Shown here piece after piece: positions 1-19,980 of a stretch of DNA of 64,000 nt (position 1 is the first letter of the stretch; every line of letters starts with the position of its first letter). A program made the position numbers and the translations under genes. The notes under the pieces were generated by a model, which was not told the origin of the DNA, ran no database searches, and saw nothing but the letters and a program-made list of their open reading frames with translations. Source of the DNA: Cenarchaeum sp. (lineage in GTDB: Archaea > Thermoproteota > Nitrososphaeria > Nitrososphaerales > Nitrosopumilaceae); the NCBI GenBank assembly GCA_965206845.1, contig OZ242221.1, positions 1,536,001 through 1,600,000 of the forward strand. The letters run 5' to 3'.

Positions 1-3000
1 ACGGTCGACTGGGGAGACGGCAGCACCACCACGCATACGGGGGATGCCACGCACGTGTACGGTGTCGCCGGAACCTACACTGTTCAGATATCCGGCGACT
101 TTACCAGAATCTATCTGGGCGGCGGCGAGGCCAACGCGCAAAAGCTGCAGTCGATAGAGCAATGGGGGGACGTCGGATGGGATTCAATGATGTCGGCATT
201 TTATGGAGCGACAAACATGGTATACAACGCAACGGATGCCCCGGACTTATCCGGCGTGACCAGCATGGCAGACATGTTCCACAACGCCGCCCTCTTTGAC
301 GGCGACATCTCCGGCTGGGACGTCTCGTCGGCGACTGACATGGGCAGCATGTTCTTCAACGCCCGCTCCTTCAACCAGCCCCTCAACGGATGGAACGTCT
401 CATCCGTGGAAGACATGTCTTTTATGTTCAGCGGAGCCACCTACTTTGACCAGCCCCTCAACGGATGGAACGTCTCATCCGTGGAAGACATGTCTTTTAT
501 GTTCAGCGGAGCCACCTACTTTGACCAGCCCCTCAACGGATGGAACGTCTCATCCGTGGAAGACATGTCTTTTATGTTCAGCAGTACCTCTTTCTTTAAC
601 CAGCCTCTTGACTCCTGGGACGTCTCGTCGGTGGCCGACATGAACAGAATGTTCGCCGGCGCCACCGCCTTCAACGGCGACATCTCAAACTGGAATGTTT
701 CGTCTGTCACCGACATGAGCGGGATGCTGTCTCGGGCTTATGCCTTTGATCAGAATTTAGGTGACTGGTACATCGTCTTGGATGATGCGGCTATCGATTA
801 CGGTGACGCGCCAGGGGTCGTCGGAAGTATATCTGCACAAAACCAGGCTCTCAACTATCAGAGTCCTGCATATCGTCTGGGATCGGGCGGCGACTCTGAC
901 TTTTTTGAGATGGATGGCGCCCGTCTCAAAATGAAGGGCACTCCTGCGAAAGGCTCGTATTTTGTAACTCTGACTGCCACCGGCGACTTTGGCAGATCCA
1001 ATTCAAAGGTGGTGGAAGTTACAGTTACCGGAGTCCCTGCAGGTGTTGATGCCGTTCCCATAGTAGTCAGATCCACGACTGCAGACTACTTTGTGCTATA
1101 TGTGCGGCACGCTCTGGATCCGGACACGACGGTGGAGATGCCTGTCTTGGCGGTTCTTGGTGAAAACGGCACGACGGCACTTGCCGAGAGCGTGGAGGCG
1201 CTTTCCAAGGAGCGCTACCGGGTGGAGAAATACCTAGTCGCCGACCCTGCCGACGTTGACGGCGACGGCATCGACGATGTCACAGAACTCTCAGATCCGG
1301 TGGGCATGAACCCTGTGAACCCGGTCACCGCGTTAGATCCCGGCGACGGTGCCGTGTCTATTCCTGACTGGGACACATTCAAGGCGTTATCCTTTGACAT
1401 TCTTGGGATGAATTTTACGACCGTCAAGTTCGTCATACTCCACGCGGATACCGCCCTCCCGCATGTCTACTTTATGAACGGCACAAAGTATCCGGCGCAT
1501 TCTATCTTTCTGGATGTCCTAGGCGTCACGTCGTACTACGATGATTACATAACCGGTTCGATTACCTATGACCCGGAAATCGTTGCCCCCGATGGCAGCC
1601 TAGGAGTCTACCATTACGAGTTATCCTGGTGGACCACTGATACTCCGTTCAACCTGGTGGATCGCACTTATACCCTGCTTGCCGCAAACATGCCCCTGCT
1701 TGAGGACAACTTGGCCTTGCATGTGAGCAACCGTGAACTTCCGCTTTTCCAGTCCGACTTGCCATTATATGCAGCATCCCGCGTCAACCTCGTATTCGAC
1801 GACGACATACTCCCCGAAACCGACTTCCTTGCGTTGAATCCTGGAGAAGGGTACGGCATGCTGCAGACCATGGAACCAGACGAGCGCCCCAACCCCCGTG
1901 ACGTGGTAATCTACGAGGCGCTGCCCAACGAGCTGCCCCGCGTCGCCGGCATCATCAGCACCGTGCCTCAAACGCCGCTCTCGCATGTCAATCTGCGCGC
2001 CGTTCAAGACAGCGTGCCCAACGCCTTCATCCGCGACGTCCTAGAAGACGCCGGCATCGACGATCTTATCGGCAGCTACGTCTACTACAACGTGACCGAG
2101 GACGGATGGGACCTGCGCGCAGCCACCCGCGCAGAAGTCGATGCCCACTACGGTCATTCTCGGCCTACCGGGGAACAGGTGCCGCAACGGGATCTCTCGG
2201 TAACGTCGATCACCCCCCTCAGTGATGTTGGCTTTGAGGACTGGGAGGCGTTCGGCGTCAAGGCGGCGAATGTGGCCGTGCTGGGAAAGATGGGTTTCCC
2301 TGAAGGGACCGTCCCGGACGGGTTCGCGGTGCCGTTTTATTTCTACGACGAGTTCATGAAGGCCAACGGGCTCTACGCCCGCATCGATGCCATGCTGGCC
2401 GACCCTGCCTTACAGACTGACTTCGATGTCCAGGAGGACGAGCTCAAGAAGCTGCGCAAGGCGATAAAGAAGGCAGAGACACCCGCGTGGATAATCACGG
2501 AGCTAGAGGAGATGCACGGGGAGTTTTCCAATGGGATCTCCCTGCGCTACAGGTCCAGCACCAACAACGAGGATCTCCCCGGTTTCAACGGCGCGGGACT
2601 GTACGACTCCAAGACCCAGGATCCAGAGGAGACCGAGGAGGACGGCATCGACAAGTCCCTCAAGTCGGTGTACGCCAGTCTGTGGAACTTTCGCGCCTTC
2701 ACCGAACGCGACTTCCATCGTATCAATCACACGGAGGCCGCGATGGGAATCCTGGTGCACCCCAACTATTCCGACGAACTAGCTAACGGCGTGGCCGTCA
2801 GCTTTGATCCAGTCCGTGACAGCGACGGGAATTACTACGTCAATACCCAGATCGGCGAGGATCTGGTCACCAATCCCGAGGTATACTCGATACCGGAGGA
2901 AATACTGTTGGACCGGTACGCCGATCAGTACACCGTCCTTGCCACCTCCAACCAGGTGCCGCCGGGGCAACTTCTCATGAGCGACGACCAGCTGTATCAG

Positions 3001-6000
3001 TTACGCCTGCACCTTGCCACGATCCATGAGGAGTTTGCAGATCTGTACGGTGTCGGGCCCGGCGAGCGGTTTGCCATGGAGATCGAGTTTAAGATCACCA
3101 GCGAGGACATTCTTGCGATCAAGCAGGCCCGACCATGGATCTTCAACTCCGAGCGATCCCATGTGATAGACGGTACCCCGCCGGTCTTCAGCTCCGCCAC
3201 GTACGACAAAGGCACAGGCGTCCTTGCGATAACCCTCAGCGAGGACATATCCGGGACGGCAGATCTTGCCAAGTTGCATGTACGTGAATCCGGCCAACCC
3301 TCCAGCGGCACTGCCCTGACAGGTGCCACCCAATCCATCGTAGGCTACACCATCATCATAACACTCACAGACTCCCAGAGGACGGCGGTCAACGACATGA
3401 CGGCGCCCACGCTGGACATAGACGCGGGTGCCGTCTCAGACGGAATCGACCACATACTGGTCACCCGGGATCGGGCAATCACCATTGTCAACAGCGATCC
3501 CGTTGTCGACGCCGGCCCAGACCAGACCGTGGACGAGGGATACTTGGTAACACTCAACGCCACTGTCACCGATGCCGACGGCGACAACATGACCTACTCG
3601 TGGACGCACGACTCGCCTTTGGCCATCCAGCTGGCCAACCCTGCCTCGCCGTCCACCACCTTTGCCGCTCCGGCAGTCGACGCGGACACGGAAATAACAT
3701 TCACGCTGACTGCCGATGACGGAACCGTCACTGCCTCAGACTCGCTTGCAGTTACCGTCACCGACGTGCCAACTGTCAACAGCCCGCCTGTCGCCGATGC
3801 CGGCCCAGACCAGACCGTGGACGAGGGATACTTGGTAACACTCAACGCCACTGTCACCGATGCCGACGGCGACAACATGACCTACTCGTGGACGCACGAC
3901 TCGCCTTTGGCCATCCAGCTGGCCAACCCTGCCTCGCCGTCCACCACCTTTGCCGCTCCGGCAGTCGACGCGGACACGGAAATAACATTCACGCTGACTG
4001 CCGATGACGGAACCGTCACTGCCTCAGACTCGCTTGCAGTTACCGTCACCGACGTGCCAACTGTCAACAGCCCGCCTGTCGCCGATGCCGGCCCGGACAA
4101 GACCGTCCAAGAGGGCCAGGCAGTCACGCTCAACGGAACCGCCACCGATACCGACGGTGACGGTCTGACGTACGCGTGGAGCCACGACTCGTCCACGGAA
4201 ATAACATTCAACGCCTCCTCGCCGGTTGCCACGTTTGCAGCGCCGCCGGTGGATGCCGACACGACAGTCACCTTCACGCTGGCAGTCTCCGACGGCTCGG
4301 CCAATTCCACCGACGCCGTTCTTGTCACCGTGATCGACGTGCCGGACGACTCGGACTTTGTCACGACGTGGGAGACTGCTGCACCGGGTGAGTCCATAAC
4401 GATCCCGGCCCGCGGCACGTACACGATATCATGGGGCGACGGAACGGTGGACGCGGGAGTCACGGGCGACCAGACCCACGCGTACGACGTCCCCGGGAAC
4501 CACACGATCCGCATATCCAAGGGCATCACTGGAATCAACCTGGGCAACCATGCCGACGCGCCCAAGCTGAGATCGATAGACCAGTGGGGCGACGCCAAGT
4601 GGAGTACGATGTATTCCGCATTCAGGGACGCCTCAAGCATGACATTGCGCGCGGCTGACGCGCCGGACCTCTCCCGTGTCAAGTACACCCAGTACATGTT
4701 CTTGAACGCCAGCTCCTTTGACGGCGACCTCTCCGCGTGGGACGTCTCGCATGTCACCAACATGGTGGGAATGTTCTGGGAGGCCAGCTCCTTTGACGGC
4801 GACCTCTCTGCGTGGGACGTCTCGAGCGTGACTGACATGTTTACCATGTTCTACAATGCCCGCTCCTTTGACGGGAACATATCCGCGTGGGACGTCTCGT
4901 CCGTAAGAAACATGGCCAACATGTTCCACGGCGCCTCGTCATTTGACGGCGACCTCTCCGCGTGGGATGTCTCGTCGGTGACTGACACGTATGCCATGTT
5001 TTTGGCCGCGTCCTCCTTTGACGGCGACCTCTCCGGCTGGGACGTCTCGCGCGTGACTGACATGGCCGACATGTTCCGCTCTGCCTCGTCATTTGACGGC
5101 GACGTCTCCGGCTGGGACGTCTCGCGCGCGACCCGCATGAGTACCATGTTCTACCTCGCCGACTCGTTTGACCAGAACCTGGGGGAATGGTACATCGTGC
5201 TCGACGATGCCGCCATTGACCACAGCAGCGTCCCAAGGGAGGTGGGCAGGATCGCCGCACAGAACAGGTTCCTGGATGGCCATAACCCGGCATACGGCAT
5301 AGGCTCCGGGGGCGATTCGGCCCACTTCGAGATCGACGGCAGCATCCTCAAGATGAAGTCGGTGCCTGACGGGCACGCCGGCCCGTACTCGGTCACCGTA
5401 ACTTCCACCGGAGCATACGGCTCGGAAAACTCCCGCACCTTTGACATATCCGTGACGGAAGGGGACGCCAACACGCCACCGGTGGCGTCGTCTGGCCCAC
5501 GCGGCGTGGACGGGTTCACCCTGACCAGCACCCAGCCCGGAACGATCGAGGTAACTTGGGATGCCCCCGGCGAGGCGCCCAGAGACTACCGCGTGGCGTG
5601 GGCCAAAGTAGGTGAGAACTTTTTGTCGCGTAGTGACCTGACAGGCAACGCTTTTCCCACGTCCCCCAACCACACCATCACGGGTCTCGAGGGCGGAGAG
5701 TACCAGGCGAAGGTGCGCGCCCGGTACAACAGCGGCGGAGCGGGGAACTGGAGCGAGGTGGCCACCGTCACGGTTTTGGCGCCGCCCGACCCGCGCGGGA
5801 TAGGCGAGATCAACCTGACCAGCGCCCAGCCCGGTACGATCCAGGTCTCCTGGGAGGCGCCCGGCGAGGCGCCTAGGGACTACCGCGTAGCGTGGGCCGA
5901 GGTGGGCGAGAGCTTCCTGGGGCGGAGTAACTTGGACGGCAACGCTTTTCCCACCTCACCCAACCACACCATCACGGGTCTCGAGGAGGGCGAGGAGTAC

Positions 6001-6084
6001 AAGGTGAAGGTGCGCGCCCGTTACAGTGATAACGGCCCGGGTGACTGGAGCGACGAGGTCACTATCACCGTCGCGAGATCCTAG
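1..6084 (+). CDS. Giant mosaic surface protein, 5' end outside the window: DUF285/BspA-like repeats, PEP-utiliser/dikinase module, PKD-like repeats, second DUF285 block, two FN3 domains
   Basis: Frame is open from base 1 (TVDWGDGS). It has WDVSSVTDMxxMF repeats, LSHVNLRA, GVKAANVA, RSSTNNEDLPGFNGAGLY and KQARPW motifs, DAGPDQTV PKD starts and FN3-type WxAP..Y.V.W..Y.VKVRARY motifs. Confidence 0.85.
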   Translation, partial: TVDWGDGSTTTHTGDATHVYGVAGTYTVQISGDFTRIYLGGGEANAQKLQSIEQWGDVGWDSMMSAFYGATNMVYNATDAPDLSGVTSMADMFHNAALFDGDISGWDVSSATDMGSMFFNARSFNQPLNGWNVSSVEDMSFMFSGATYFDQPLNGWNVSSVEDMSFMFSGATYFDQPLNGWNVSSVEDMSFMFSSTSFFNQPLDSWDVSSVADMNRMFAGATAFNGDISNWNVSSVTDMSGMLSRAYAFDQNLGDWYIVLDDAAIDYGDAPGVVGSISAQNQALNYQSPAYRLGSGGDSDFFEMDGARLKMKGTPAKGSYFVTLTATGDFGRSNSKVVEVTVTGVPAGVDAVPIVVRSTTADYFVLYVRHALDPDTTVEMPVLAVLGENGTTALAESVEALSKERYRVEKYLVADPADVDGDGIDDVTELSDPVGMNPVNPVTALDPGDGAVSIPDWDTFKALSFDILGMNFTTVKFVILHADTALPHVYFMNGTKYPAHSIFLDVLGVTSYYDDYITGSITYDPEIVAPDGSLGVYHYELSWWTTDTPFNLVDRTYTLLAANMPLLEDNLALHVSNRELPLFQSDLPLYAASRVNLVFDDDILPETDFLALNPGEGYGMLQTMEPDERPNPRDVVIYEALPNELPRVAGIISTVPQTPLSHVNLRAVQDSVPNAFIRDVLEDAGIDDLIGSYVYYNVTEDGWDLRAATRAEVDAHYGHSRPTGEQVPQRDLSVTSITPLSDVGFEDWEAFGVKAANVAVLGKMGFPEGTVPDGFAVPFYFYDEFMKANGLYARIDAMLADPALQTDFDVQEDELKKLRKAIKKAETPAWIITELEEMHGEFSNGISLRYRSSTNNEDLPGFNGAGLYDSKTQDPEETEEDGIDKSLKSVYASLWNFRAFTERDFHRINHTEAAMGILVHPNYSDELANGVAVSFDPVRDSDGNYYVNTQIGEDLVTNPEVYSIPEEILLDRYADQYTVLATSNQVPPGQLLMSDDQLYQLRLHLATIHEEFADLYGVGPGERFAMEIEFKITSEDILAIKQARPWIFNSERSHVIDGTPPVFSSATYDKGTGVLAITLSEDISGTADLAKLHVRESGQPSSGTALTGATQSIVGYTIIITLTDSQRTAVNDMTAPTLDIDAGAVSDGIDHILVTRDRAITIVNSDPVVDAGPDQTVDEGYLVTLNATVTDADGDNMTYSWTHDSPLAIQLANPASPSTTFAAPAVDADTEITFTLTADDGTVTASDSLAVTVTDVPTVNSPPVADAGPDQTVDEGYLVTLNATVTDADGDNMTYSWTHDSPLAIQLANPASPSTTFAAPAVDADTEITFTLTADDGTVTASDSLAVTVTDVPTVNSPPVADAGPDKTVQEGQAVTLNGTATDTDGDGLTYAWSHDSSTEITFNASSPVATFAAPPVDADTTVTFTLAVSDGSANSTDAVLVTVIDVPDDSDFVTTWETAAPGESITIPARGTYTISWGDGTVDAGVTGDQTHAYDVPGNHTIRISKGITGINLGNHADAPKLRSIDQWGDAKWSTMYSAFRDASSMTLRAADAPDLSRVKYTQYMFLNASSFDGDLSAWDVSHVTNMVGMFWEASSFDGDLSAWDVSSVTDMFTMFYNARSFDGNISAWDVSSVRNMANMFHGASSFDGDLSAWDVSSVTDTYAMFLAASSFDGDLSGWDVSRVTDMADMFRSASSFDGDVSGWDVSRATRMSTMFYLADSFDQNLGEWYIVLDDAAIDHSSVPREVGRIAAQNRFLDGHNPAYGIGSGGDSAHFEIDGSILKMKSVPDGHAGPYSVTVTSTGAYGSENSRTFDISVTEGDANTPPVASSGPRGVDGFTLTSTQPGTIEVTWDAPGEAPRDYRVAWAKVGENFLSRSDLTGNAFPTSPNHTITGLEGGEYQAKVRARYNSGGAGNWSEVATVTVLAPPDPRGIGEINLTSAQPGTIQVSWEAPGEAPRDYRVAWAEVGESFLGRSNLDGNAFPTSPNHTITGLEEGEEYKVKVRARYSDNGPGDWSDEVTITVARS
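374..582 (+). repeat. Near-perfect 66-bp tandem repeats encoding 22-aa DUF285 units
   Basis: accagcccctcaacggatggaacgtctcatccgtggaagacatgtcttttatgttcagc occurs three times in tandem. Confidence 0.9.
3510..4086 (+). repeat. 288-bp tandem duplication of a PKD-like domain
   Basis: Two essentially identical 96-aa units (AGPDQTVDEGYLVTLNAT...DVPTVNSPPVAD) offset by 288 bp. A near-identical copy occurs near 14,715-15,000. Confidence 0.9.
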
Positions 6085-6324
6085 CTATGCCACGGGGATA
6101 AAGTCCGTGCATGTTTTGCCGAACTGCAGTATATGGAAATTATGTCTGCTAGTCATTGGAGTCCACCTCCGCCCATTTTGGGTTCTTTTCCCTGATCGCT
6201 TCTGTCGCCTTTTTGGCAATTAATTCCCAAGGAACCTTACGGCTGTGTCCTACGGGCATATATGAACTGGAATTGACTCTGTAGATTTGATTCATTTGGA
6301 AAAACATCCTCGTCGTAGTCGTGG

Positions 6325-6445
6325 CAGTGGATCGACCCCTTGATAACCATGTGCTCCGCGCACTTTCATTTGAATGGGGCAATCCGAGCTGCTGTGTTCC
6401 TGTGCTTCGCGCACTGATAGGTGATTGCAGCTTCCGATCCATCGA
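6325..6445 (+). ncRNA. Candidate bridge/seek RNA of the IS110 element
   Basis: Outer stem TGGATCG/CGATCCA encloses two internal loops, each with a GTGCTyCGCGCAC hairpin. The loop strands match the element junction sequences. The transcribed strand is assumed. Confidence 0.55.
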
Positions 6446-6474
6446 AAACAATCCGCAAGGAGATGAGAGAAAGG

Positions 6475-7554
6475 ATGAGGAACATAGGAATAGACATTGG
6501 TAAGGGAAAATGCATAGTATGCGTAGTGGACGGCAAGGGAAACGTGCTGGAGAGGGCATCATACAAGAACACGCTGGAAGACGCAAAAGAGTTTGCACGC
6601 AGGATGAAAAAAGAATACGGCGGGAAAGGACGGTGCAGGGCCGCGTGCGAGTCGACTGGAAACATGTGGCTCAAGACATTTGAGGCCTTCGAGGGGTGCG
6701 AGATACCGGTAAAGCTTGCCAACACGTACAAGATGAAGATAATATCGGACACCGACGTCAAGACGGATCCCATCGACGCGCAAAAGATTGCAAACGCGCT
6801 GCGCGTGGGGATTATCCCAGAATGCTACGTGGCACCATCGGATTTGCGCGATGTCAGGGAACTGCTCAGGTACAGGATAAGCATGGTTCAGGCAAGGACT
6901 GCCCTGATCAACTACACGCACGGCCTGCTTGACAAGTACGACGTGATGCCAGATGTCTCAAGGATGCACAGCAAAAAGGCCATCAGGCTGCTTTCGCAGA
7001 TACGCCTTAAGAAACCAAATGACAACATGATCCTGCAAAACTGCGTCAAAAGGATTGCACATGCCACAGAGGAGATATCTGGCATCGAGGCAGAGATAGA
7101 CAGGCAGGCCGCAGTCAACGAGGATGCGAAACTGCTGATGAGCATGACTGGCATAGAGGCGTTTGCCGCGATGCTGCTGGTATCTGCGATTGACGGCATC
7201 ACCAGGTTCAAGACCGCAGACAGACTGGTCTCATGGACCGTGATGTGTCCGCGAGTCTACCAGTCCGGCAACGTGACGCACCACGGCCGCATGAAAAAGG
7301 CGTCAAACCGAAGGGTAAACTGGATAATGATCCAAGCAGCCAACGTGGCAGTGCGCCATGATGACAGACTAAAGTGGTTCTATCAAAATGCCAAGACAAG
7401 GCACGGTGGCAACCACCCGATTGCCATAACACACGTGGCAAACAAGATGGTGAGGATCATCTGGAAGATGCTGACTGCCAAGGAACCGTACGAGTCCCAT
7501 GACGCAAGCAGATATGCCAAAAAGATGAAAAGAATGAAGAAGATTCTGCAGTAG
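6475..7554 (+). CDS. IS110-family transposase/recombinase (DEDD RuvC-like domain + Tnp20 domain)
   Basis: GIDIGK, CESTG and KTDPIDA give the DEDD residues. YQSG carries the catalytic Ser. C-terminal HVANKMVRIIWKML. Likely start is MRNIGID at 6475. Confidence 0.95.
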   Translation: MRNIGIDIGKGKCIVCVVDGKGNVLERASYKNTLEDAKEFARRMKKEYGGKGRCRAACESTGNMWLKTFEAFEGCEIPVKLANTYKMKIISDTDVKTDPIDAQKIANALRVGIIPECYVAPSDLRDVRELLRYRISMVQARTALINYTHGLLDKYDVMPDVSRMHSKKAIRLLSQIRLKKPNDNMILQNCVKRIAHATEEISGIEAEIDRQAAVNEDAKLLMSMTGIEAFAAMLLVSAIDGITRFKTADRLVSWTVMCPRVYQSGNVTHHGRMKKASNRRVNWIMIQAANVAVRHDDRLKWFYQNAKTRHGGNHPIAITHVANKMVRIIWKMLTAKEPYESHDASRYAKKMKRMKKILQ

Positions 7555-8044
7555 GTGCACGGGGCGGACTGGCCAGCTAGGCTGGCCCGCACCAGTACAT
7601 TTTCTGCAATCCAATTCCTAGCGATAGCTTTAAAGTTGTACGCGCGTAACCTAGGCGTGGATCAGAAGTCAGACGGAATCAACGCTTGACTATGACCGGA
7701 TGTTTTAACATAGGTGGTTATGTCTGTAGGACACAGCCGAACCTTACAGTTTGCATATATTGATGAAGGCAGCCCAAGGCTGAACGGTGCAAGCCAGACC
7801 GGGGAAAGGTCCAAAATAAACCGCACATACTATGTGGATTCCGACAGACCCGTTAAACAGTGTACAAAATGCCGCATTCACGCCGGAATGCCCGCACCAT
7901 GGCAGCGTCACGGACGCTGGACGTCTCTGCCCGACCCGACACACATGGCATCTGGCATGCATCTCAGGTTCCAGGCACGGATCTGGTCTCACATGACGGC
8001 CCGCAGAGCACTGAACCCGTGTGATAATGGCATTACAAGCGATC

Positions 8045-8125
8045 GGCTGTGTCCTAAAGGAATATGCCCGTTTGGATGGTGGCTTCTGGATGGCCATTTT
8101 GGATATTTGCTTGTAGGGCACAGCC
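8045..8125. mobile_element. 81-bp MITE with GGCTGTGTCCTA-type ends
   Basis: GGCTGTGTCCTA at 8045 and TAGGGCACAGCC ending at 8125 (one mismatch). No TSD is visible. Confidence 0.65.
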
Positions 8126-8127
8126 AT

Positions 8128-8235
8128 TTTTTAGCTACTGTCCATATTGTCTAATTTGTAAATCTTTTTAGCTAATGCTTATATTGTCTAATTTGTAAAT
8201 CTCTTTAGCGTATGATGCGTATTGCTCGATTTGTA
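8128..8235 (+). repeat. AT-rich 37-bp tandem repeat (two good copies, one degenerate) upstream of the surface-protein gene
   Basis: tttttagctactgtccatattgtctaatttgtaaatc / tttttagctaatgcttatattgtctaatttgtaaatc / tctttagcgtatgatgcgtattgctcgatttgta. Confidence 0.8.
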
Positions 8236-8261
8236 CCGCCCGGAGATGCCGTGGGTGCCAT

Positions 8262-11200
8262 ATGATGAAGGCGCTTATAGTGGTGCTCGCGCTAGTGCTA
8301 CCTAGTTTGCTGGGCTACGCCCTTGCGACACCCTCCATCGCCATGTCTCCTGTTGCGTTTGTGGCCGACGGGGTGGACGGGTTTGAGGAGCTTGGCGGGC
8401 CAAAAGGCATCACCACAGTCACGATCGGCTCCTCGACGTATGCCCTTGTTGCCGCATACGACGACGACGGCGTCCAGATAGTCGACATCACGGATCCCTT
8501 CAACCCGAGCCCCGTTGCGGCCGTAACCGACGGGGTGGACGGGTTTGAGGAGCTTCGCGGTGCGCGCGGCATCACCACCGCTACGGTCGGCTCCTCGACG
8601 TACGCACTTGTCACGGCAGCTGCCGGCGTCCAGATAATCGACATAACGACTCCCTCCAGCCCGGCCCCGACCGCGCACATAAGCGCTGCCTCTGCTGTCG
8701 CCCTCCGTGGCTCGTACGGCATCGCTACGTTTACAGTCGGATCCTCTGCGTATGCCATTGTCGCATCAAGCTCAGGCGGCATCCAGATAATCGACATCAC
8801 GGATCCCTCCAGCCCGGCCCCCGTCGCATCCATATTGGGCGGAAGCGAGCTCGGCGGGCTCGGCGGAGCGCGCGGCATCACCACGACCACGATCGGCTCC
8901 TCGACATACGCCCTTGTTGCCGTATCCAGCGAAGACGCCGTCCAGATAATCGACATTACAGATCCCTTCAACCCGAGCCCCATTGCAGCCGTACGCAGTA
9001 GTCAAGATAACAGGCTTGACGGCGCAACTGGCATCACCACCGCCACCATTGGCTCCTCTACATACGCCCTTGTTACGGCGCAGTACGATAACGCCGTCCA
9101 GATAATCAACATCACGGATCCCTCCAGCCCGGACTCCGTTGCATTCGCGCAGGACGGAAGCGGTGGGTTTGACAAACTTGAATATCCTGAGAGCATCGCC
9201 GTCGTCACGTTCGACTCCTCGACGTACGCCATCGTCGCGGCATTCCTGGACGGCATCCAGATAATAAACATCACGGATCCCTCCAACCCCAGCCCTGCAG
9301 CCTCTGTGGACAGCAATGACGCCAGATTTGGCGGCTTTCCGCTTCCCGAAGACATCGCCGTCGTCACGATAGACTCCAGGACGTACGCCCTTGCCGCATC
9401 CTATTTTGGTAACGGTGTCCAGATAATCGATGTAGCCCTCACCTCCGGCCCGCTGCTAACGTCGGCCGTCTTGGACGAGGGAACAGGCATCTTGGAGATC
9501 GAATTTGCGAGTGCAGTCGATGTCACTCCCGCAGGCATGGCTGATCTGTCCGGATTGACCATCCGTGGTTCCGGACAGTCCGTTTCGCTGGCCGGGGCGA
9601 CGCTGGGAACCGAGGCGGACTCCACCGTAATCTCCATCGAGCTGACCGAGGGCCAGGGCCGCTCAGTCGCCGCCATGGCGTCCCCGCGGTTGGATGTGGC
9701 AGACTCTGCCGTGACAGGAACGGACGGCAACCCGATCGAACAATCGTTAGGCAATACCGTCACCGTAAACGATGACGCGGCGCCTGGGGTCGTATCTGCG
9801 GCCTTTGACGGGGAGGGCAGCATCCTGACTATCACGTTTTCAGACAGGATCGACGTCACGCCTGCCCGCATGGTTTACCTGGGAGGGATGACCGTCAGCG
9901 GCTCCGGGCAGTCCGTTTCGCTGGCAGGGGCGACTTTGGGAACGGAGGCCGACTCTGCTGTAATCTCCATCGTGCTGACCGAGAGCCAAGGCAGCTCAGT
10001 CGTCGCCATGGTGTCCCCGCTGTTGGCCATAGGCCACTATGACGTAGTAGACACGGATGGCAACCCGATCGCGTCTTCGTCCGGCAATGCCATCTCCATA
10101 AACAGTGTAAACGAGATTCCGACCGTCACATCGATCGAGCGGAGCGACCCGACAACGGAGACCGCCTCCGCGCAGACCCTTGTCTTTGCTGTGACCTTCA
10201 GCGAAAACGTGGCCGGCGTGGACCAGGCAGACTTTGCGCTGTCGCCTGGTAGCACCGGGGCGGGAAGCATAGCAAACCTGACCGGCTCCGGCAGCCGGTA
10301 CCTCGTGACCGTCTCGGTCACGCGGGACGGGACATACAATCTCGACATCGCACAGAACAACAACATCACCGATGCCACGGGCAATCCTCTGGCAGGCGAC
10401 GACCCGTTGCCGGATCAGTCGTTCACTGTGGTGACTGTAAACACGGCACGTGAAGTAGGCGGGATCACCCTGACCAGCACCCAGCCCGGGACGATCCAGA
10501 TAACCTGGGAGGCTCCCAGCGAGGCGCCCAAGGACTACCGCGTGGTGTGGGCCAAGGCGGGCGAGAACTTTCTGCCGCGGAGTGACCTAGCAGGCAACGC
10601 TTTTCCGACCTCTCCTAACCACACCATCACGGATCTAGAGGAGGGTGAAGAGTACAAGGTAAAGGTGCGCGCCCGATACTACAGCGGCGGGCCCGGGGAC
10701 TGGAGCGGCGTGGTCACCCCCATGCTTGCCGTAATCCCGGACCAGACCGTTGACGCCGGCCCCGACCAGACCGTCATGGAGGGCCAGACGGTTGCACTGA
10801 ACGGCACTGCCGCCGACATCAACGGTGATCCGCTGACCTACTCGTGGATCCACGACTCGGCCCTGGCCATACAGTTTGCTAACGCCACCTCTCCGTCCAC
10901 CACCTTTACCGCGCCTGCAGTCTACGCGGACACTGCAGTGACCTTCACGCTGACTGTCAATGACGGCAACAGCACCGCCTCCGACCAGATGACAGTTACC
11001 ATCGCCCACAACGACCCGCCGACCTTCGTCACGTCTGAATTTGACACTGACGCGGGGGTGCTGACGATCACCTTTTCAGAAACGATAGACGTGGCAAACG
11101 TAGTCCCTGCCAAGATGCACGTAAGGGAGTCGGGGAATTACACGCACGGCACAACCCTGACTGCCGGCGAGCTTGTCACTGTCGCCGACGGCGCCACGAT

Positions 11201-14200
11201 CTCGTTTACCCTCACTGAACCGCACCGCACGGCAGTCGCGAGACTGGCCGCGCCGGAACTGACGATCGAGCCGGGGGCGGTGCGGGACGCGTCTGGCAAC
11301 CTCATAGTCGGCACCTTTGATGCCTCCACCCGAACGTTCGTTGACGCCACCAGCATCCGACCACAGGAAAACGCTCCAACAGACATCGCGTTCTCAAACG
11401 ACGGCACCAAGATGTTTGTGATGGGCACTGTCGGAGACGACGTAAACGAATACACGCTGTCCACCCCGTTTGATGCCTCCACCCGAACGTTCGTTGACGC
11501 CACCCCCATATCATCAGAAGAAACTCTTCCAACAGACATGGTGTTCTCAAACGACGGCACCAAGATGTTCGTGATAGGCACTGACGGAGCCGACGTAAAC
11601 GAGTACACGCTGTCCACCCCGTTCGATGCCTCCACCCTAACGTTCGTTGACGCCACCTCCATATCGTCACAGGACGGCCAACCACGAGGCATGGCGTTCT
11701 CAAACGACGGCACCAAGATGTTCGTGCTAGGCAATGCCGGAGACGACGTAAACGAGTACACGCTGTCCACCCCGTTCGATGCCTCCACCCTAACGTTCGT
11801 TGACGCCACCTCCATATCGTCACAGGTAGTCAGACCACAAGGCATCGCGTTCTCAAACGACGGCACCAAGATGTTCGTGCTAGGCAATGCCGGAGACGAC
11901 GTAAACGAATACGCGCTGTCCACCCCGTTCGATGCCTCCACCCTAACGTTCGTTGACGCCACCTCCATATCATCAGAAGAAACTTTTCCAACAGGCATGG
12001 TGTTCTTAAACGACGGCACCAAGATGTTCATAATAGGCATTATCGGAGACGACGTAAACGAATACGATCTGAGCTCCGTCTATCCAATTACGGTGACAAG
12101 GACGCCACCGATCTTTGTCGCGTCCGAACTTGACATTGACGCGGGGGTGCTGACGATTACCTTTTCAGAAACGATAGACGCGGCAAGTATAGTTCCGGCC
12201 AAGATCCACGTAAGGGAGTCGGGGAATTACACGCACGGCACAACCCTGACTGCCGGCGAGCTTGTCACTGTCGCCGACGGCGCCACGATCTCGTTTACCC
12301 TCGCTGAACCGCACCGCGCCGCAGTCGCGAGACTGGCCACGCCGGAACTGACGATCGAGCCGGGGGCGGTACGGGACGCGTCTGGCAACCTCATCGTCGG
12401 CACCTTTGATGTCTCCACCCAAACGTTCGTTGACGCCACCGACATCTCATCACAGGAAACCCAACCACGAGACATCGCGTTCTCAAACGACGGCACCAAG
12501 ATGTTCATAGTAGGCGATGTCAGAGACAACGTAAACGAATACACGCTGTCCACCCCGTTCGATGCCTCTACCAGAACGTTCGTTGACGCCACCAGCATCC
12601 GAGCACAGGACGGCGATCCACGAGGCATGGCGTTCTCAAACGACGGCACCAAGATGTTCGTGATAGGCTATAACGGAGACAACGTAAACGAGTACGCGCT
12701 GTCCGCCCCGTTCGATGCATCCACCCTGACGTTCGTTGACGCCACCAGCATCCGAGCACAGGAAGACGATGCACGAAGTGTAGCGTTCTCAAACGACGGC
12801 ACCAAGATGTTCGTGATGGGCGTTGTCGGAGACGACGTAAACGAATACACGCTGTCCACCCCGTTTGATGCCTCCACCCGAACGTTCGTTGACGCCACCT
12901 CCATATCATCAGAGGAAACTTTTCCAACAGGCATGGTGTTCTCAAACGACGGCACCAAGATGTTCGTGATAGGCTGGGAAGAGTACGTAAACGAGTACGC
13001 GCTGTCCACCCCGTTCGATGCCTCCACCCGAACGTACGTTGACGACACCTCCATATCATCAGAGGAAGTCGATTCACAAGGCATCGCGTTCTCAAACGAC
13101 GGCGCCAAGATGTTCATAATAGGCATTATCGGAGACGACGTAAACGAATACGATCTGAGCTCCGTCTATCCCGTTACGGTGACAAGGGCGCCCCCGATGA
13201 CTGCCGGGGCGCTTGTCACCCTGTGGAACGTGGCAGCCAGTCCGCACACGATCTCCATGCCCCTGAATGTGCATTCCGGGGGAACGCTTTCCATAGACTG
13301 GGGCGACAACAGCACTGACACTGTCGCCGCCAACGGCACGCAGTCGCACACGTACGCGGTCCCGGGCGAGTACCGGGTGTCCATGACCGGAGACCTTGCC
13401 AGGATAAACCTGGCCGCTACCGGTTCCACGGCATCCAAGCTGGCATCCATCGACCAGTGGGGCGACATAGAATGGTCCTCCATGAAAGGCGCGTTCTGGG
13501 GAGCCTCCGGCATGGAATACAAGGCAGCCGACGCGCCGGACCTGTCGCGCGTGGCCTCGATGCAGAACATGTTCCGTGCCGCTGCCTCCTTTGATGGCGG
13601 CCTGTCCTCTTGGAACGTCTCGGCCGTGGCCAACATGGACGGCGCGTTCCGCGGCGCCTCGGCGTTCAAAGGAGACATCTCTACTTGGGACATGTCCGGC
13701 GTGACTGACATGAGGACGATGTTCCAGGACACCGCCGCCTTCAACGGCGACATCTCCGGCTGGAACGTCTCGTCGGTGACCAACATGAATTCCATGTTCT
13801 CAGGCGCCTCCTCCTTCGACCAACCCCTCGACTCCTGGAACGTCTCGTCGGTGACCAACATGAATTCCATGTTCTCAGGCGCCTCCTCCTTCAACCAACC
13901 CCTCGACTCCTGGAACGTCTCGTCGGTGGAAGACACGTCCTACATGTTCTCAGGCGCCACCGCCTTCAACCAGCCCCTTGACTTCTGGGACGTCTCGTCT
14001 GTGACCGACATGAACAGCATGTTTGGCTTGGCCACCTCCTTTGACGGCGACATATCTGACTGGGTCGTCTCGTCTGTGACCGACATGAACAGCATGTTCT
14101 CTGGTGCCGACTCCTTTGACCAAAACTTGGGCAAATGGTACATCGTGCTTAATGACATGACCATCGACTATAATGATGCACCAGGAATTGTCGGAAGCAT

Positions 14201-18766: not shown

Positions 18767-19980
18767 GGCTGTGTCCTATGAATAAAAGCCACCACTCTCT
18801 GCATGGTGACTGAGACACCGGACGTCTCATAATTTGCAGACACTGCGGCAGCTCCGCTTCGCTGATCATCCGAAAACCATAAAATTGCCCCGTTCCACGG
18901 CATAATGCGCAGGCTCCGCTGGGCAGGCGCGGTGGAGGCCGCGCCGGTCATGCAGTCATGGTAGCGATCATCTTCGGTGTGAGCCTGCCGTCCCTTGCCT
19001 TCGATCTGGCCACGAGTTCTATGTTGTAACAGATTATCCGAATTGCAATCTCCCTGCACTGGTTCTCCGGCTTGTGGCAACGCGTGTGGTTTCCGTACAT
19101 CTTCTTGATGGCGCCAAACACCGCCTCTATGATGCTGAGCTGGTGGTATTCTGACTTGAACGTGTCCGGATCTTGCACGGACAGGTCTACTATCTCGCGC
19201 CACGCTTGGCTTCCAAAGGCGTTGTGAACCGTGTTGGATTTCGGCTTGATGCGCGGCACCATGCCCATCTCCGATATCGCGCTGCACACATCCCTTGCAA
19301 GGTAGGCCGAATCCAGGCAGAAGTGGCCCGCACCCCCCTCAAATCTGGCCAGCATGCTTCGCAGTCCAATGATGTCGGCTACGTTGCTGGCCGTCACGAG
19401 GTAGTCGAGTACCACCCCCGTGCGTATGTCGTTGATGCTGTGGAGCTTGACCCAGCCCCTCTTGGTTTTCACGCTGCCGGTCCGCACGTCATACCACCTG
19501 GCGAAGCCGCTGTCAGAGTATCCCGTGCTGTCCCCTGCCACCGATCCCGCAGGTATCTCGCAGATGACCCTGCGGTGCACCTCCGCCAGGTACCGATCCG
19601 GAATGAGGTCGTAGGCGCGGGCAATGGTGCTCTTGGAGGGAATCTTGTGCGGTCCGATCTTCGCGACGGTGTTGCGGTTGTTTCGGAGATGGCCGACCAT
19701 CTTGCGATAGGTCTTGCGCTCGGCCTCCATGACTATGCACACTGCGGCCATGGCCCTGGACGGATATGCAGTCATGCCGCCCAGGCTGAACCTGGCAGTA
19801 TACGGGTCGCCCAGGTCATTGACTATTTTCAGAATCGTGTTGAGGATTAGACCGGGCAGGTATTGCTGAATCAGGTCGTACTGTCGTTGATCGCGCTTCC
19901 TTTCAGGCACTTGGTGGGCCCGCGATCCTCAGATCAATATGCCTTGCTATTGGACAGGTATATCTTAGTAGGACACAGCT
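18767..19980 (-). mobile_element. IS5-family element (IS903-like ends)
   Basis: GGCTGTGTCCTA at 18767 and TAGGACACAGCT ending at 19980 enclose a DDE transposase. No TSD seen. Confidence 0.8.
18948..19910 (-). CDS. IS5-family DDE transposase
   Basis: GDSTG, WVKLH, LDSAY, PRIKPKSN and YHQLSIIEAVFGAIK motifs. The usual Arg of YHxRS is Leu here. Confidence 0.85.
   Translation of the reverse strand: MPERKRDQRQYDLIQQYLPGLILNTILKIVNDLGDPYTARFSLGGMTAYPSRAMAAVCIVMEAERKTYRKMVGHLRNNRNTVAKIGPHKIPSKSTIARAYDLIPDRYLAEVHRRVICEIPAGSVAGDSTGYSDSGFARWYDVRTGSVKTKRGWVKLHSINDIRTGVVLDYLVTASNVADIIGLRSMLARFEGGAGHFCLDSAYLARDVCSAISEMGMVPRIKPKSNTVHNAFGSQAWREIVDLSVQDPDTFKSEYHQLSIIEAVFGAIKKMYGNHTRCHKPENQCREIAIRIICYNIELVARSKARDGRLTPKMIATMTA

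What the first reader, a model, noticed from the sequence alone, without database searches (positions are those of the whole stretch)
6232..7747. IS110 element nested inside a MITE of an unrelated transposon family
Seen: an IS110 recombinase is bracketed by 13-bp TIRs (GGCTGTGTCCTAC) and a perfect 9-bp TSD (GAACCTTAC). Known: IS110 elements do not make terminal IRs with TSDs, while GGC ends with a 9-bp TSD are typical of the IS903 group of IS5. Seen: a second, inner IR pair (6301-6320 / 7688-7706) has CAT just outside each copy. Excising between the CATs leaves an 82-bp TIR-bounded element, almost the size of the 81-bp MITE at 8045. Inference: an RNA-guided IS110 uses a MITE as its landing pad and could also be moved as cargo by the IS5 transposase, giving two mobility routes.
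Basis: partly seen in the sequence, partly recalled or inferred. Interest (0 to 1): 0.72.

Follow-up and report, generated by a model that had tools for sequence, protein, structure and literature searches.

The report
RNA-guided IS110 element inside a MITE
A jumping gene of the RNA-guided IS110 family sits inside an 80-bp relic of an unrelated jumping gene because its own guide RNA matches that relic's sequence; this is a clean new example of a known habit of the family, not a new kind of system.

Summary
The TIRs, the 9-bp duplication and the IS110 recombinase are real. The outer 80 bp (6241-6298 plus 7717-7738) is a MITE of an IS5-like element. The genome holds 8 copies of it, 5 empty and 3 occupied, and at least 12 autonomous partners of about 1.2 kb with the same ends. 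The inner element (6299-7714, 1416 bp) is flanked by a TG core, not by CAT. Its left non-coding end encodes a structured RNA (6327-6442) with two internal loops. Loop 1 matches the MITE on both sides of the TG: 8/8 on the left, 7/8 on the right. Loop 2 matches the element's own right end. Across 58 related RNAs from 11 genomes, the guides track their own flanks (left 4.0/6 against 1.8/6 for non-cognate pairs; right 3.9/6 against 1.5/6). The MITE arms differ far more between copies than the IS does (10/83 against 26/1415), so the insertions were independent. Movement as IS5 cargo is possible but not shown. Targeting of repeats and transposon ends by this family is already known. One mildly unusual feature: the RNA lies upstream, as in IS110-type elements, but its guide order and sub-terminal repeats are IS1111-like.

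The parts
6232..6240 (.). Left copy of the 9-bp target-site duplication (GAACCTTAC) made when the MITE inserted
   Evidence: D16
6241..6298 (+). Left arm of the 80-bp IS5-derived MITE (TIR 6241-6253). Its last two bases, TG 6297-6298, are the core at which the IS110 element recombined
   Evidence: 8 MITE copies, 5 of them empty
6299..7714 (+). IS110-family element, 1416 bp (left non-coding end 6299-6474, ORF, right non-coding end 7555-7714)
   Evidence: joint 6296->7715 (skips 1418, 3 ambiguous bases)
6301..6309 (.). Left sub-terminal inverted repeat AAAACATCC (partner at 7698-7706)
   Evidence: I17; relatives in G014 have an 11-nt equivalent
6327..6442 (+). Predicted bridge/seek RNA core. P1 6327-6334/6435-6442; P2 6336-6339/6376-6379; hairpin 1 6351-6354/6360-6363; P3 6386-6392/6427-6433; hairpin 2 6402-6405/6411-6414
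   Evidence: (95.1% of cells paired, covariation 0.280 against 0.134 shuffled, 0/500)
6342..6349 (+). Loop 1, 5' side: GATAACCA, the reverse complement of core plus right target TGGTTAT(g). Right-target guide
6365..6372 (+). Loop 1, 3' side: TTCATTTG, identical to the left target plus core (6291-6298). Left-target guide
6393..6400 (+). Loop 2, 5' side: TGTGTTCC, the right-donor guide. It is complementary to the left-end start AACACA of copy cC and relatives, a stretch that this copy lacks
6416..6423 (+). Loop 2, 3' side: GATAGGTG, which matches the right end ATAGG plus core TG (7710-7716). Left-donor guide
6475..7554 (+). DEDD recombinase/transposase, 359 aa. This copy has private changes at two near-invariant positions (E238A, G256V)
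7698..7706 (.). Right sub-terminal inverted repeat GGATGTTTT
   Evidence: I17
7715..7738 (+). Second copy of the TG core (7715-7716) and the right arm of the MITE (7717-7738; TIR 7726-7738)
7739..7747 (.). Right copy of the 9-bp TSD
18767..19980 (-). One autonomous IS5-like partner of the MITE (same TIR; ORF 18948-19910, DDE_Tnp_1)

Best explanation
An 80-bp MITE, a deletion derivative of a ~1.23-kb IS5-like element, inserted here first and made the 9-bp duplication. Later an IS110-family element integrated into the middle of that MITE by site-specific recombination at a TG core.

The site was chosen by a non-coding RNA encoded in the element's left end. One internal loop carries two short guides. 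One is complementary to the top strand to the right of the TG. The other is identical to the top strand to the left of it, so it would pair with the bottom strand. A second loop carries the matching pair of guides for the element's own joined ends.

Because the MITE is repeated, it offers several copies of a harmless site. All three copies with a perfect 13-nt target are occupied.

Shown here: the anatomy, the empty sites, the RNA structure with covariation, and the guide-flank correspondence across relatives. Inferred: that the RNA is made, that it binds the recombinase, and that recombination goes through a circular intermediate as in IS621 and ISEc11.
For: (1) Empty sites. 5 of the 8 MITE copies lack the IS. 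The closest empty copy reads ...GACTCATT-TG-GTTATGTCTG....
(2) Copies. Three IS copies sit at the identical position in three MITE copies, and a fourth copy (cC, 91.8% identical) lies outside any MITE.
(3) RNA structure. 26 pairs in 5 helices on 11 sequences, 9 pairs with compensatory changes. 95.1% of cells are paired, against 86.3% when shuffled (0/500) and 31-52% when the partners are slid.
(4) Guides of the window copy. TTCATTTG matches the left flank plus core at 8/8. GATAACCA is the reverse complement of TGGTTAT(g) at 7/8. GATAGGTG matches the right end plus core at 7/8.
(5) Guide-flank test on 58 related RNAs from 11 genomes. Left: 47 unique guide/flank pairs score 4.00/6 non-core matches, against 1.77/6 for 2096 non-cognate pairs. 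Right: 17 unique pairs score 3.88/6, against 1.53/6 for 264 non-cognate pairs. The donor guides co-vary with the element ends: TGTCT with AAGACA, TGCTTTC with GAAAGCA, TGTGTA with TACACA, and GATAGATG with CATAGATG.
(6) Target use. The perfect 13-nt target has 0 unoccupied copies in the genome. The only 1-mismatch sites are one empty MITE and one unrelated locus.
(7) Independent insertions. The arms differ at 10/83 columns and the IS at 26/1415, p = 1.2e-5.
(8) The recombinase is under purifying selection between lineages: dN/dS is 0.20 for the window copy against cC.
Against: No RNA evidence: no listed run is on record as RNA. No circle-junction joint was listed, and no occupied/empty polymorphism could be assigned to this locus. 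The 6296->7715 joint seen in 4 of 4 runs comes from short contigs that may be the paralogous empty MITE.

Some flanks do not fit. Copy cC's flanks fit its guides poorly (left 4/6, right 0/6). G019's right flank scores 0/6, L056's right flank 1/6, and one G056 element scores 0/6 on the left.

The three MITE-borne copies lack the first 8 nt of the left end (AACACATG) that copy cC has. In the relatives aligned the left end starts with an equivalent but variable hexamer (AACACA, AAGACA, AAAGCA, TACACA). As a result their unchanged right-donor guide no longer matches their own left end well.

The window copy's recombinase has A and V where 12 of 12 homologues have E and G, so this particular copy may no longer be active.

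The relatives used are kin, so the Mann-Whitney p-values overstate independence. Gene conversion among IS copies could make the IS look younger than the arms.
Confidence: 0.85

Rival explanations
1. The composite (MITE arms plus IS110) was copied around the genome as a unit by the IS5-like transposase acting on the outer TIRs. Under it, the three MITE-borne copies descend from a single IS110 insertion.
For: The window copy has intact 13-bp TIRs. The composite (1498 bp) is close in size to the autonomous element (1211-1370 bp). At least 12 autonomous copies, 6 of them with perfect 9-bp TSDs, suggest a recently active transposase. The window copy and cB have different 9-bp TSDs. The arms of cB and cD are alike (about 4/83 differences, against about 18/1062 in the IS, p = 0.069). 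All three copies share the same 8-nt left-end truncation.
Against: Between the window copy and cB the arms differ at 10/83 columns and the IS at 26/1415 (p = 1.2e-5), the opposite of what one unit moving together would give. Different TSDs are expected anyway, because each MITE copy has its own TSD: 6 of 8 are perfect and 1 is 8/9. cB's outer TIR begins AA instead of GG.
Confidence: 0.12
2. The IS spread between MITE copies by homologous recombination or gene conversion through the short MITE arms, not by its own recombinase.
For: All three insertions are at exactly the same position and in the same orientation relative to the MITE. The window copy's recombinase carries changes at conserved positions. 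The right-donor guide does not fit the truncated left end.
Against: The arms are only 58 and 22 bp long and differ by about 12% between the window copy and cB. Conversion would be expected to carry arm sequence along with the IS. The guides match the MITE at 8/8 and 7/8, which conversion does not explain. Copy cC and the elements in 10 other genomes, at sites outside this MITE family, follow the same guide rule.
Confidence: 0.03
3. The TIRs and the 9-bp duplication belong to the IS110-type element itself, making it an atypical IS110 with terminal repeats.
For: The repeats bracket the recombinase gene exactly.
Against: Five 80-bp copies carry the same TIRs and their own 9-bp TSDs with no IS inside. 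At least 12 DDE-transposase elements carry the same TIRs. Copy cC and all relatives lack these arms.
Confidence: 0.005

Closest known systems
IS621 / IS110-group bridge-RNA elements (Durrant et al. 2024, PMC11208160, passages read; structures 8wt6 and 9t56 matched)
   Same: DEDD RuvC-like domain plus PF02371 domain with the conserved SG. Non-coding RNA encoded in the left end, upstream of the recombinase. Two internal loops, the first for the target and the second for the donor. Each loop has two guides that pair with opposite strands, and both guides cover a dinucleotide core. The target lies in a repeated extragenic sequence.
   Different: [quoted passage not shown] The core is TG, not CT. 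The sub-terminal inverted repeats are 9-11 nt rather than 2-3 nt. The right end is long (160 nt). An outer stem closes both loops. The host is archaeal. Protein similarity to IS621 and ISCro4 is weak (E = 5e-4 and 6.9e-5).
IS1111-group seekRNA elements such as ISEc11, ISKpn4 and ISPa11 (Siddiquee et al. 2024, PMC11187229, passages and section 6 read)
   Same: Sub-terminal inverted repeats. The guide order is the same: the top-strand complement lies 5' of the bottom-strand match. Homologues carry a G(M/L)-P----SG motif.
   Different: In IS1111-type elements the long non-coding region and the RNA lie downstream of the transposase gene. Here the RNA is upstream. That paper mentions a few exceptions (ISMtsp17 with an upstream region; ISHvo10 and ISAcp5 with long regions on both sides), but in what I read it does not describe their RNAs.
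[quoted passage not shown]
   Same: A member of the IS110/IS1111 family that uses a sequence belonging to another, unrelated transposon as its specific insertion site.
   Different: The target there is the 38-bp TIR of bacterial Tn3-family transposons. Here it is the interior of an 80-bp MITE derived from an archaeal IS5-like element. The autonomous element's own ends lack the target: GTGGGGTTATG in place of CATTTGGTTATG.
ISPpu9 / ISPpu10 / IS621 insertions in REP sequences (abstracts seen; ISPpu9 discussion passage)
   Same: Multi-copy, non-coding repeats serve as safe landing sites. Several copies per genome are occupied.
   Different: REP elements are not transposon derivatives with TIRs and TSDs, so they offer no second mobilisation route.

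Membership tests
IS110 family (sensu ISfinder, RNA-guided DEDD recombinases) | N-terminal DEDD RuvC-like domain (PF01548) with the catalytic acidic residues | tested here: met
   PF01548 at 1.5e-23. D7, E59, D98 and D101 are invariant in 13 aligned sequences. Which of these residues are catalytic is recalled from the family literature, not tested here.
IS110 family (sensu ISfinder, RNA-guided DEDD recombinases) | C-terminal PF02371 domain with the conserved P----SG serine motif | tested here: met
   PF02371 at 4.8e-21. P259, S264 and G265 are invariant. NF033542 scores 225 bits against a 140-bit cut-off.
IS110 family (sensu ISfinder, RNA-guided DEDD recombinases) | No terminal inverted repeats or TSD of its own; insertion at a short core that is present on both sides | tested here: met
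   A TG core lies at 6297-6298 and 7715-7716. Empty sites carry a single TG.
IS110 family (sensu ISfinder, RNA-guided DEDD recombinases) | Non-coding RNA with a target-binding loop and a donor-binding loop | tested here: met
   Structure and covariation. Guide-flank and guide-end correspondence. Expression and binding were not testable here.
IS110 subgroup (IS621-like) | Bridge RNA in a long left end, a short right end, and a sub-terminal repeat of only 2-3 bp | tested here: not met
   The RNA is in the left end (met). But the left end is 176 nt and the right end 160 nt, and the sub-terminal repeat is 9 nt.
IS110 subgroup (IS621-like) | [quoted passage not shown] | tested here: not met
   The order is reversed in both loops (compared).
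IS1111 subgroup | Sub-terminal inverted repeats of 7-17 bp | tested here: met
   9 nt here (I17); 11 nt in the G014 relatives.
IS1111 subgroup | Guide RNA encoded downstream of the transposase, in the right end | tested here: not met
   The RNA model hits the left end of every copy. The right end was not tested for a second RNA beyond the Rfam scan (no hit).
IS1111 subgroup | [quoted passage not shown] | tested here: met
   compared with the passages.
MITE of an IS5-like element | Short, non-coding, with the same TIRs and the same TSD length as an autonomous element in the genome, and multi-copy | tested here: met
   80 bp, 8 copies. 6 copies have perfect 9-bp TSDs and 1 has 8/9. The autonomous copies share about 22 bp at each end and make 9-bp TSDs; 6 of the 12 examined are perfect.
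IS5 family (autonomous partner) | DDE transposase of the IS4/IS5 type that passes the family model | tested here: inconclusive
   PF01609 at 3.9e-15, above its cut-off. The best NCBIfam model is 'IS5 family' at 4.4e-30, but 105 bits is below the 140-bit cut-off. The IS903-subgroup rule (GGC ends, 9-bp TSD) is recalled, not tested.

The most novel reading that the evidence does not exclude
This element belongs to a clade that is widespread in one archaeal family: its RNA model hits 23 of 101 genomes sampled, in 11 of 27 genera. The clade mixes the two described architectures. The guide RNA lies upstream of the recombinase, as in the IS110 group, while the guide order and the long sub-terminal repeats are those of the IS1111 group. 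It could therefore be a living example of the intermediate form proposed when the bridge RNA moved between element ends. In addition, the MITE-borne lineage has lost the 8 nt that its right-donor guide reads, yet it reached at least two diverged MITE copies. That would mean pairing on that donor arm is dispensable, or is replaced by an out-of-register match.
Probability: 0.3. Interest if true: 0.55.

Novelty: new member of a known kind. Interest (0 to 1): 0.4.

Why it matters
The locus is a compact natural demonstration that an RNA-guided recombinase can be matched to another transposon's relic and can fill every perfect copy of it. This is a 'safe harbour' strategy, already known for REP sequences, Tn21 ends and attC sites, and here extended to an archaeal MITE.

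The related elements give dozens of natural guide/target pairs with a TG core and a guide order opposite to that of IS621. These pairs could help to define which features of bridge RNAs are interchangeable.

For annotation, the result warns that TIRs and a TSD around an IS110 gene belong to a host MITE and not to the IS.

Tried and rejected
Rfam. The scan of 6100-8300 at E <= 1 gave only two chance-level hits (mir-77, sR30) and no bridge-RNA family.

Expression. No RNA holder is listed among the 24 runs returned, so expression could not be examined.

Reads. Four runs, all Logan contigs, were laid on 5400-8600. A joint 6296->7715 (skips 1418, 3 ambiguous bases) appears in 4 of 4 runs. Its sides are only 25-27 letters long and it may come from the paralogous empty MITE, so I do not count it as excision at this locus. 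No 'goes back' joint from the right end to the left end (a circle junction) was listed. Contigs drop rare forms, so this says nothing either way.

Empty site of copy cC. The two flanks of cC were searched in 4 related genomes. The right flank had 0 of 4 matches. The left flank matched only a repeated stretch, in 2 of 4. No orthologous empty site was found, so cC's left boundary (8 nt further out than in the MITE-borne copies) rests on the relatives' left ends and on its own guide.

The 81-bp element at 8045. I considered it as a sister MITE and rejected that: it shares only the TIRs, is single-copy and has no TSD.

G014 copies. I checked whether they also sit in a TIR-bounded repeat. They do not. 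Only about 10-14 nt around the core are alike.

Literature. Searches for an IS110-family element described inside a MITE found none. Terms were IS110 / MITE / bridge RNA, and 'IS110 family' / 'miniature inverted-repeat' / inserted. This covers only the held library.

Rows dropped before counts. In one search the left-flank test used 57 of 58 elements, because L061 lacks the flank at a contig end. These were collapsed to 47 unique guide/flank pairs. Right ends were located automatically for 27 of 58 elements. I discarded 2 as false (L044 and L047, at about 1.03-1.04 kb and without a repeat context) and replaced the false call for L002 with the right end read. That left 25 elements, or 17 unique pairs. 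The arm and IS ranges were set 1-2 bases off the final boundaries; this does not change the counts materially. The tally of 23 of 101 genomes includes one hit (E = 7.6e-8) in the unpublished genome G092. Without it the tally is 22 of 100. No other claim rests on G092.
Full report
WHAT IS THERE. The window is bases 1,536,001-1,600,000 of a single-contig, 1.65-Mb genome with 57% G+C. The region lies between two very large repeat-rich ORFs (55-6084 and 8262-16994). GGCTGTGTCCTAC lies at 6241-6253 and its reverse complement at 7726-7738. These are bracketed by a perfect 9-bp direct repeat, GAACCTTAC, at 6232-6240 and 7739-7747. Between them an ORF (6475-7554, 359 aa) hits PF01548 (1.5e-23) and PF02371 (4.8e-21). 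It also hits the NCBIfam model 'IS110 family RNA-guided transposase' at 225 bits against a cut-off of 140. Its nearest solved structures are the ISCro4 (E = 6.9e-5) and IS621 (E = 5e-4) recombinases.

TWO ELEMENTS, ONE INSIDE THE OTHER. BLAST of the 1516-bp unit against the genome found three further IS copies.
- cB is 97.7% identical and includes the outer arms.
- cD is 98.5% identical, includes the arms, and carries an internal deletion of query positions 72-425 that removes the RNA region and the N-terminus.
- cC is 91.8% identical and has no arms.

The same search found several short hits to the left arm alone. Reading those hits and searching with one of them showed an 80-bp TIR-bounded element in 8 copies. 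Five are empty and three carry the IS. Six of the 8 have perfect 9-bp direct repeats, each different. One has 8 of 9. One (cD) has flanks that are reverse complements of each other.

The same 12-nt terminus also bounds longer elements. Of 16 candidate pairs read, 12 are 1211-1370 bp long. Six of those 12 have perfect 9-bp duplications and one has 8 of 9. The copy inside the window (18767-19980, minus strand) encodes a 320-aa protein. It hits DDE_Tnp_1 at 3.9e-15, and its best NCBIfam model is 'IS5 family' at 4.4e-30, below that model's cut-off. The 80-bp element shares about 22 bp with each end of one subfamily of these elements. It is therefore a genuine MITE of an IS5-like transposon.

TRUE BOUNDARIES. 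The closest empty copy reads ...GATTTGACTCATT-TG-GTTATGTCTGTAGGAC.... In the window the left junction is ...TTCATT-TG|GAAAAAC and the right junction is ...CATAGG|TG-GTTATG. The IS is therefore 6299-7714 (1416 bp) with TG on both sides. A third G makes three bases ambiguous.

The contig joint 6296->7715 (skips 1418, 'both 3') was seen in 4 of 4 runs and has exactly this geometry. It may come from the paralogous empty MITE, however. The TG-based empty site matches the empty MITE with 1 mismatch.

THE GUIDE RNA. The left ends of the window copy, cC, two degenerate relatives in the same genome (near genome positions 443,400 and 678,750) and elements from three related genomes align with a striking pattern: invariant blocks separated by short variable blocks.

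RNAalifold predicts 26 pairs in 5 helices. An outer stem encloses two stem/internal-loop/hairpin units, and 9 pairs show compensatory changes. The pair count gives 95.1% of cells paired, against 86.3% for shuffles (0 of 500 reach it). The covariation score is 0.280 against 0.134 (0 of 500). Paired cells fall to 31-52% when partners are slid by 1-3 columns.

In the window copy the guide segments read as follows.
- Loop 1, 3' side: TTCATTTG (6365-6372). This equals the 8 bases ending at the core on the left (6291-6298).
- Loop 1, 5' side: GATAACCA (6342-6349). This is the reverse complement of TGGTTAT at 7715-7721, 7 of 8.
- Loop 2, 3' side: GATAGGTG (6416-6423). This equals the right end ATAGG plus TG.
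- Loop 2, 5' side: TGTGTTCC (6393-6400). This is complementary to (G)AACACA, the first bases of the left end in copy cC (the relatives start with variable hexamers such as AAGACA, AAAGCA or TACACA that co-vary with their own guide).

TEST ON RELATIVES. A covariance model built from the alignment finds 6 places in this genome: the window copy, cB, cC, the two degenerate relatives and one weak hit. It also matches 23 of 101 sampled genomes of the same family, in 11 of 27 genera, with up to 25 matches per genome. The tally includes one hit in the unpublished genome G092.

I fetched 40 more elements and aligned 58 RNAs to the model. The six non-core bases of the loop-1 3' segment were compared with the six bases left of the core. 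They match at 4.00 of 6 on average in 47 unique cognate pairs, against 1.77 of 6 in 2096 non-cognate pairs. For the loop-1 5' segment against the right flank, 17 unique pairs give 3.88 of 6, against 1.53 of 6 in 264 non-cognate pairs.

Several lineages are perfect on both sides. In G095, for example, the guide predicts TGCATAAC and the flank reads TG|CATAAC. G074 has TGTTCAGG on both. The donor guides co-vary with the element ends: TGTCT with AAGACA, TGCTTTC with GAAAGCA, TGTGTA with TACACA, and GATAGATG with CATAGATG.

There are exceptions. cC's right flank and G019's right flank score 0 of 6, L056's right flank 1 of 6, one G056 element scores 0 of 6 on the left, and several G016 copies score only 2-3 of 6. 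The elements are kin, so the p-values (1.6e-21 and 1.8e-6) overstate independence. The effect is nevertheless seen across 32 distinct left guides and 14 distinct right guides.

WHY THE MITE. The 13-nt site TTCATT-TG-GTTAT has no unoccupied copy in the genome. One-mismatch sites are a single empty MITE (C for T at the outermost position) and one unrelated locus. About 0.7 such sites are expected by chance. The other four empty MITE copies read GCGCGT-TG-GCTAT there. The autonomous elements read GTGGGGTTATG at the equivalent place. This explains why they are not hit. So 3 of the 4 MITE copies with a (near-)perfect site are occupied.

INDEPENDENT INSERTION OR CARGO? Between the window copy and cB the arms differ at 10 of 83 aligned columns, but the IS differs at only 26 of 1415 (Fisher p = 1.2e-5). 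The MITE copies had therefore already diverged when each received the IS. Between cB and cD the figures (about 4 of 83 against about 18 of 1062; p = 0.069) do not decide.

Nothing found here shows the composite moving through its outer TIRs. Nothing forbids it either: the TIRs of the window copy are intact and the transposase family looks recently active. Gene conversion among IS copies would bias this test and cannot be excluded.

STATE OF THE COPIES. The recombinase is under purifying selection between lineages (dN/dS is 0.20 for the window copy against cC). The window copy alone has A at E238 (SEIGD becomes SAIDG) and V at G256 (W-GMCP becomes WTVMCP). At those positions 12 of 12 aligned homologues have E and G, and so do cB and cC. 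This copy may therefore be inactive. cD is certainly dead because of its internal deletion.

The three MITE-borne copies share a left end that is 8 nt shorter (it lacks AACACATG) than that of cC. Their right-donor guide was not adjusted to this change. I cannot explain how this lineage kept moving. An out-of-register match (TTCC with GGAA) is one possibility.

COMPARISON WITH WHAT IS KNOWN. IS110-family elements are known to be guided by a bridge RNA or seekRNA, and to land in REP sequences, in the TIRs of Tn21-family transposons and in attC sites (passages and reference lists read). A MITE target is one more case of the same habit. I found no paper describing it in the held library.

The RNA differs from that of IS621. 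[quoted passage not shown] Here the order is reversed in both loops. This is the order reported for IS1111-type seekRNAs. The 9-11-nt sub-terminal repeats also fit IS1111. The RNA, however, lies upstream of the gene, as in the IS110 group. Siddiquee et al. note a few IS1111-like elements with upstream or double non-coding regions, including the archaeal ISHvo10. This clade may belong with them; I could not test that. Archaeal IS110 recombinases as such are known.

VERDICT. The main inference, that an RNA-guided IS110 uses a MITE as its landing pad, is well supported by sequence evidence. The cargo idea remains a possibility without evidence. This is a new member of a known kind with a mildly unusual RNA layout, of moderate interest.

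Noticed in passing
G000:C1:1266739-1269118 (outside the window; loci not held whole): Copy cD (MITE with the internally deleted IS110) directly abuts a full-length IS5-like copy, with only 9 bp between their facing TIRs. The three 9-bp flanks read GACTACAGA / TCTGTAGTC / GACTACAGA, so the middle one is the reverse complement of the outer two. This suggests a transposase-mediated rearrangement between neighbouring ends.
   Followed up: partly
window 7187-7196 and 7241: The window copy's recombinase has private substitutions at two near-invariant positions (E238A within SEIGD, G256V within W-GMCP). In the four runs laid, the other letters at 7187, 7193, 7196 and 7241 are the majority, or the only ones seen, in three of the four runs (in X1 only 7187-7196 are, 7241 is not).
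   Followed up: partly
window 6299 (left end), compared with L010 and relatives: The three MITE-borne copies lack the first 8 nt (AACACATG) of the left end that copy cC has; the relatives aligned start with an equivalent but variable hexamer. Their right-donor guide TGTGTT still reads the missing bases.
   Followed up: partly
G000:C1:678698-678842 and 443346-445000: Two further bridge-RNA-like left ends with different guides. The one near 678.7 kb has no recombinase ORF behind it (a solo RNA remnant). The one near 443.4 kb has a degenerate 342-aa frame. Each one's left flank matches its own guide at 7 of 8 positions counting the core, 5 of 6 without it.
   Followed up: partly
window 7748-8201: The spacer 7748-8044 is itself a dispersed repeat, with 7 further partial copies at 85-98% identity. 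Summed contig depth peaks at 7861-8074 (up to about 12,000). The 81-bp TIR-bounded element at 8045-8125 is single-copy and has no TSD. It is followed by a 2 x 37-bp tandem repeat at 8128-8201.
   Followed up: partly
window 55-6084 and 8262-16994: Two giant ORFs (2009 and 2910 aa) flank the mobile-element cluster. They share long near-identical repeat modules (visible in the translations). They were not analysed.
   Followed up: no
window 18767-19980: The autonomous IS5-like copy in the window has no 9-bp duplication (flanks cggaatgtg / gcccttttt), and its right TIR ends in T rather than C.
   Followed up: no
window 6317-6400 (run X2, table 5c): One low-depth contig replaces the loop-1 5' region with other letters. 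This suggests a population variant of the element with a different right-target guide.
   Followed up: no
L040-L047 (G056) and L031-L038 (G095): In these relatives the insertion sites share a longer consensus (TAG[T/C]CTGT-TG on the left, and CATAAC or CACAAC on the right) than the guides alone would require. These lineages may therefore also be landing in a conserved repeated motif.
   Followed up: no
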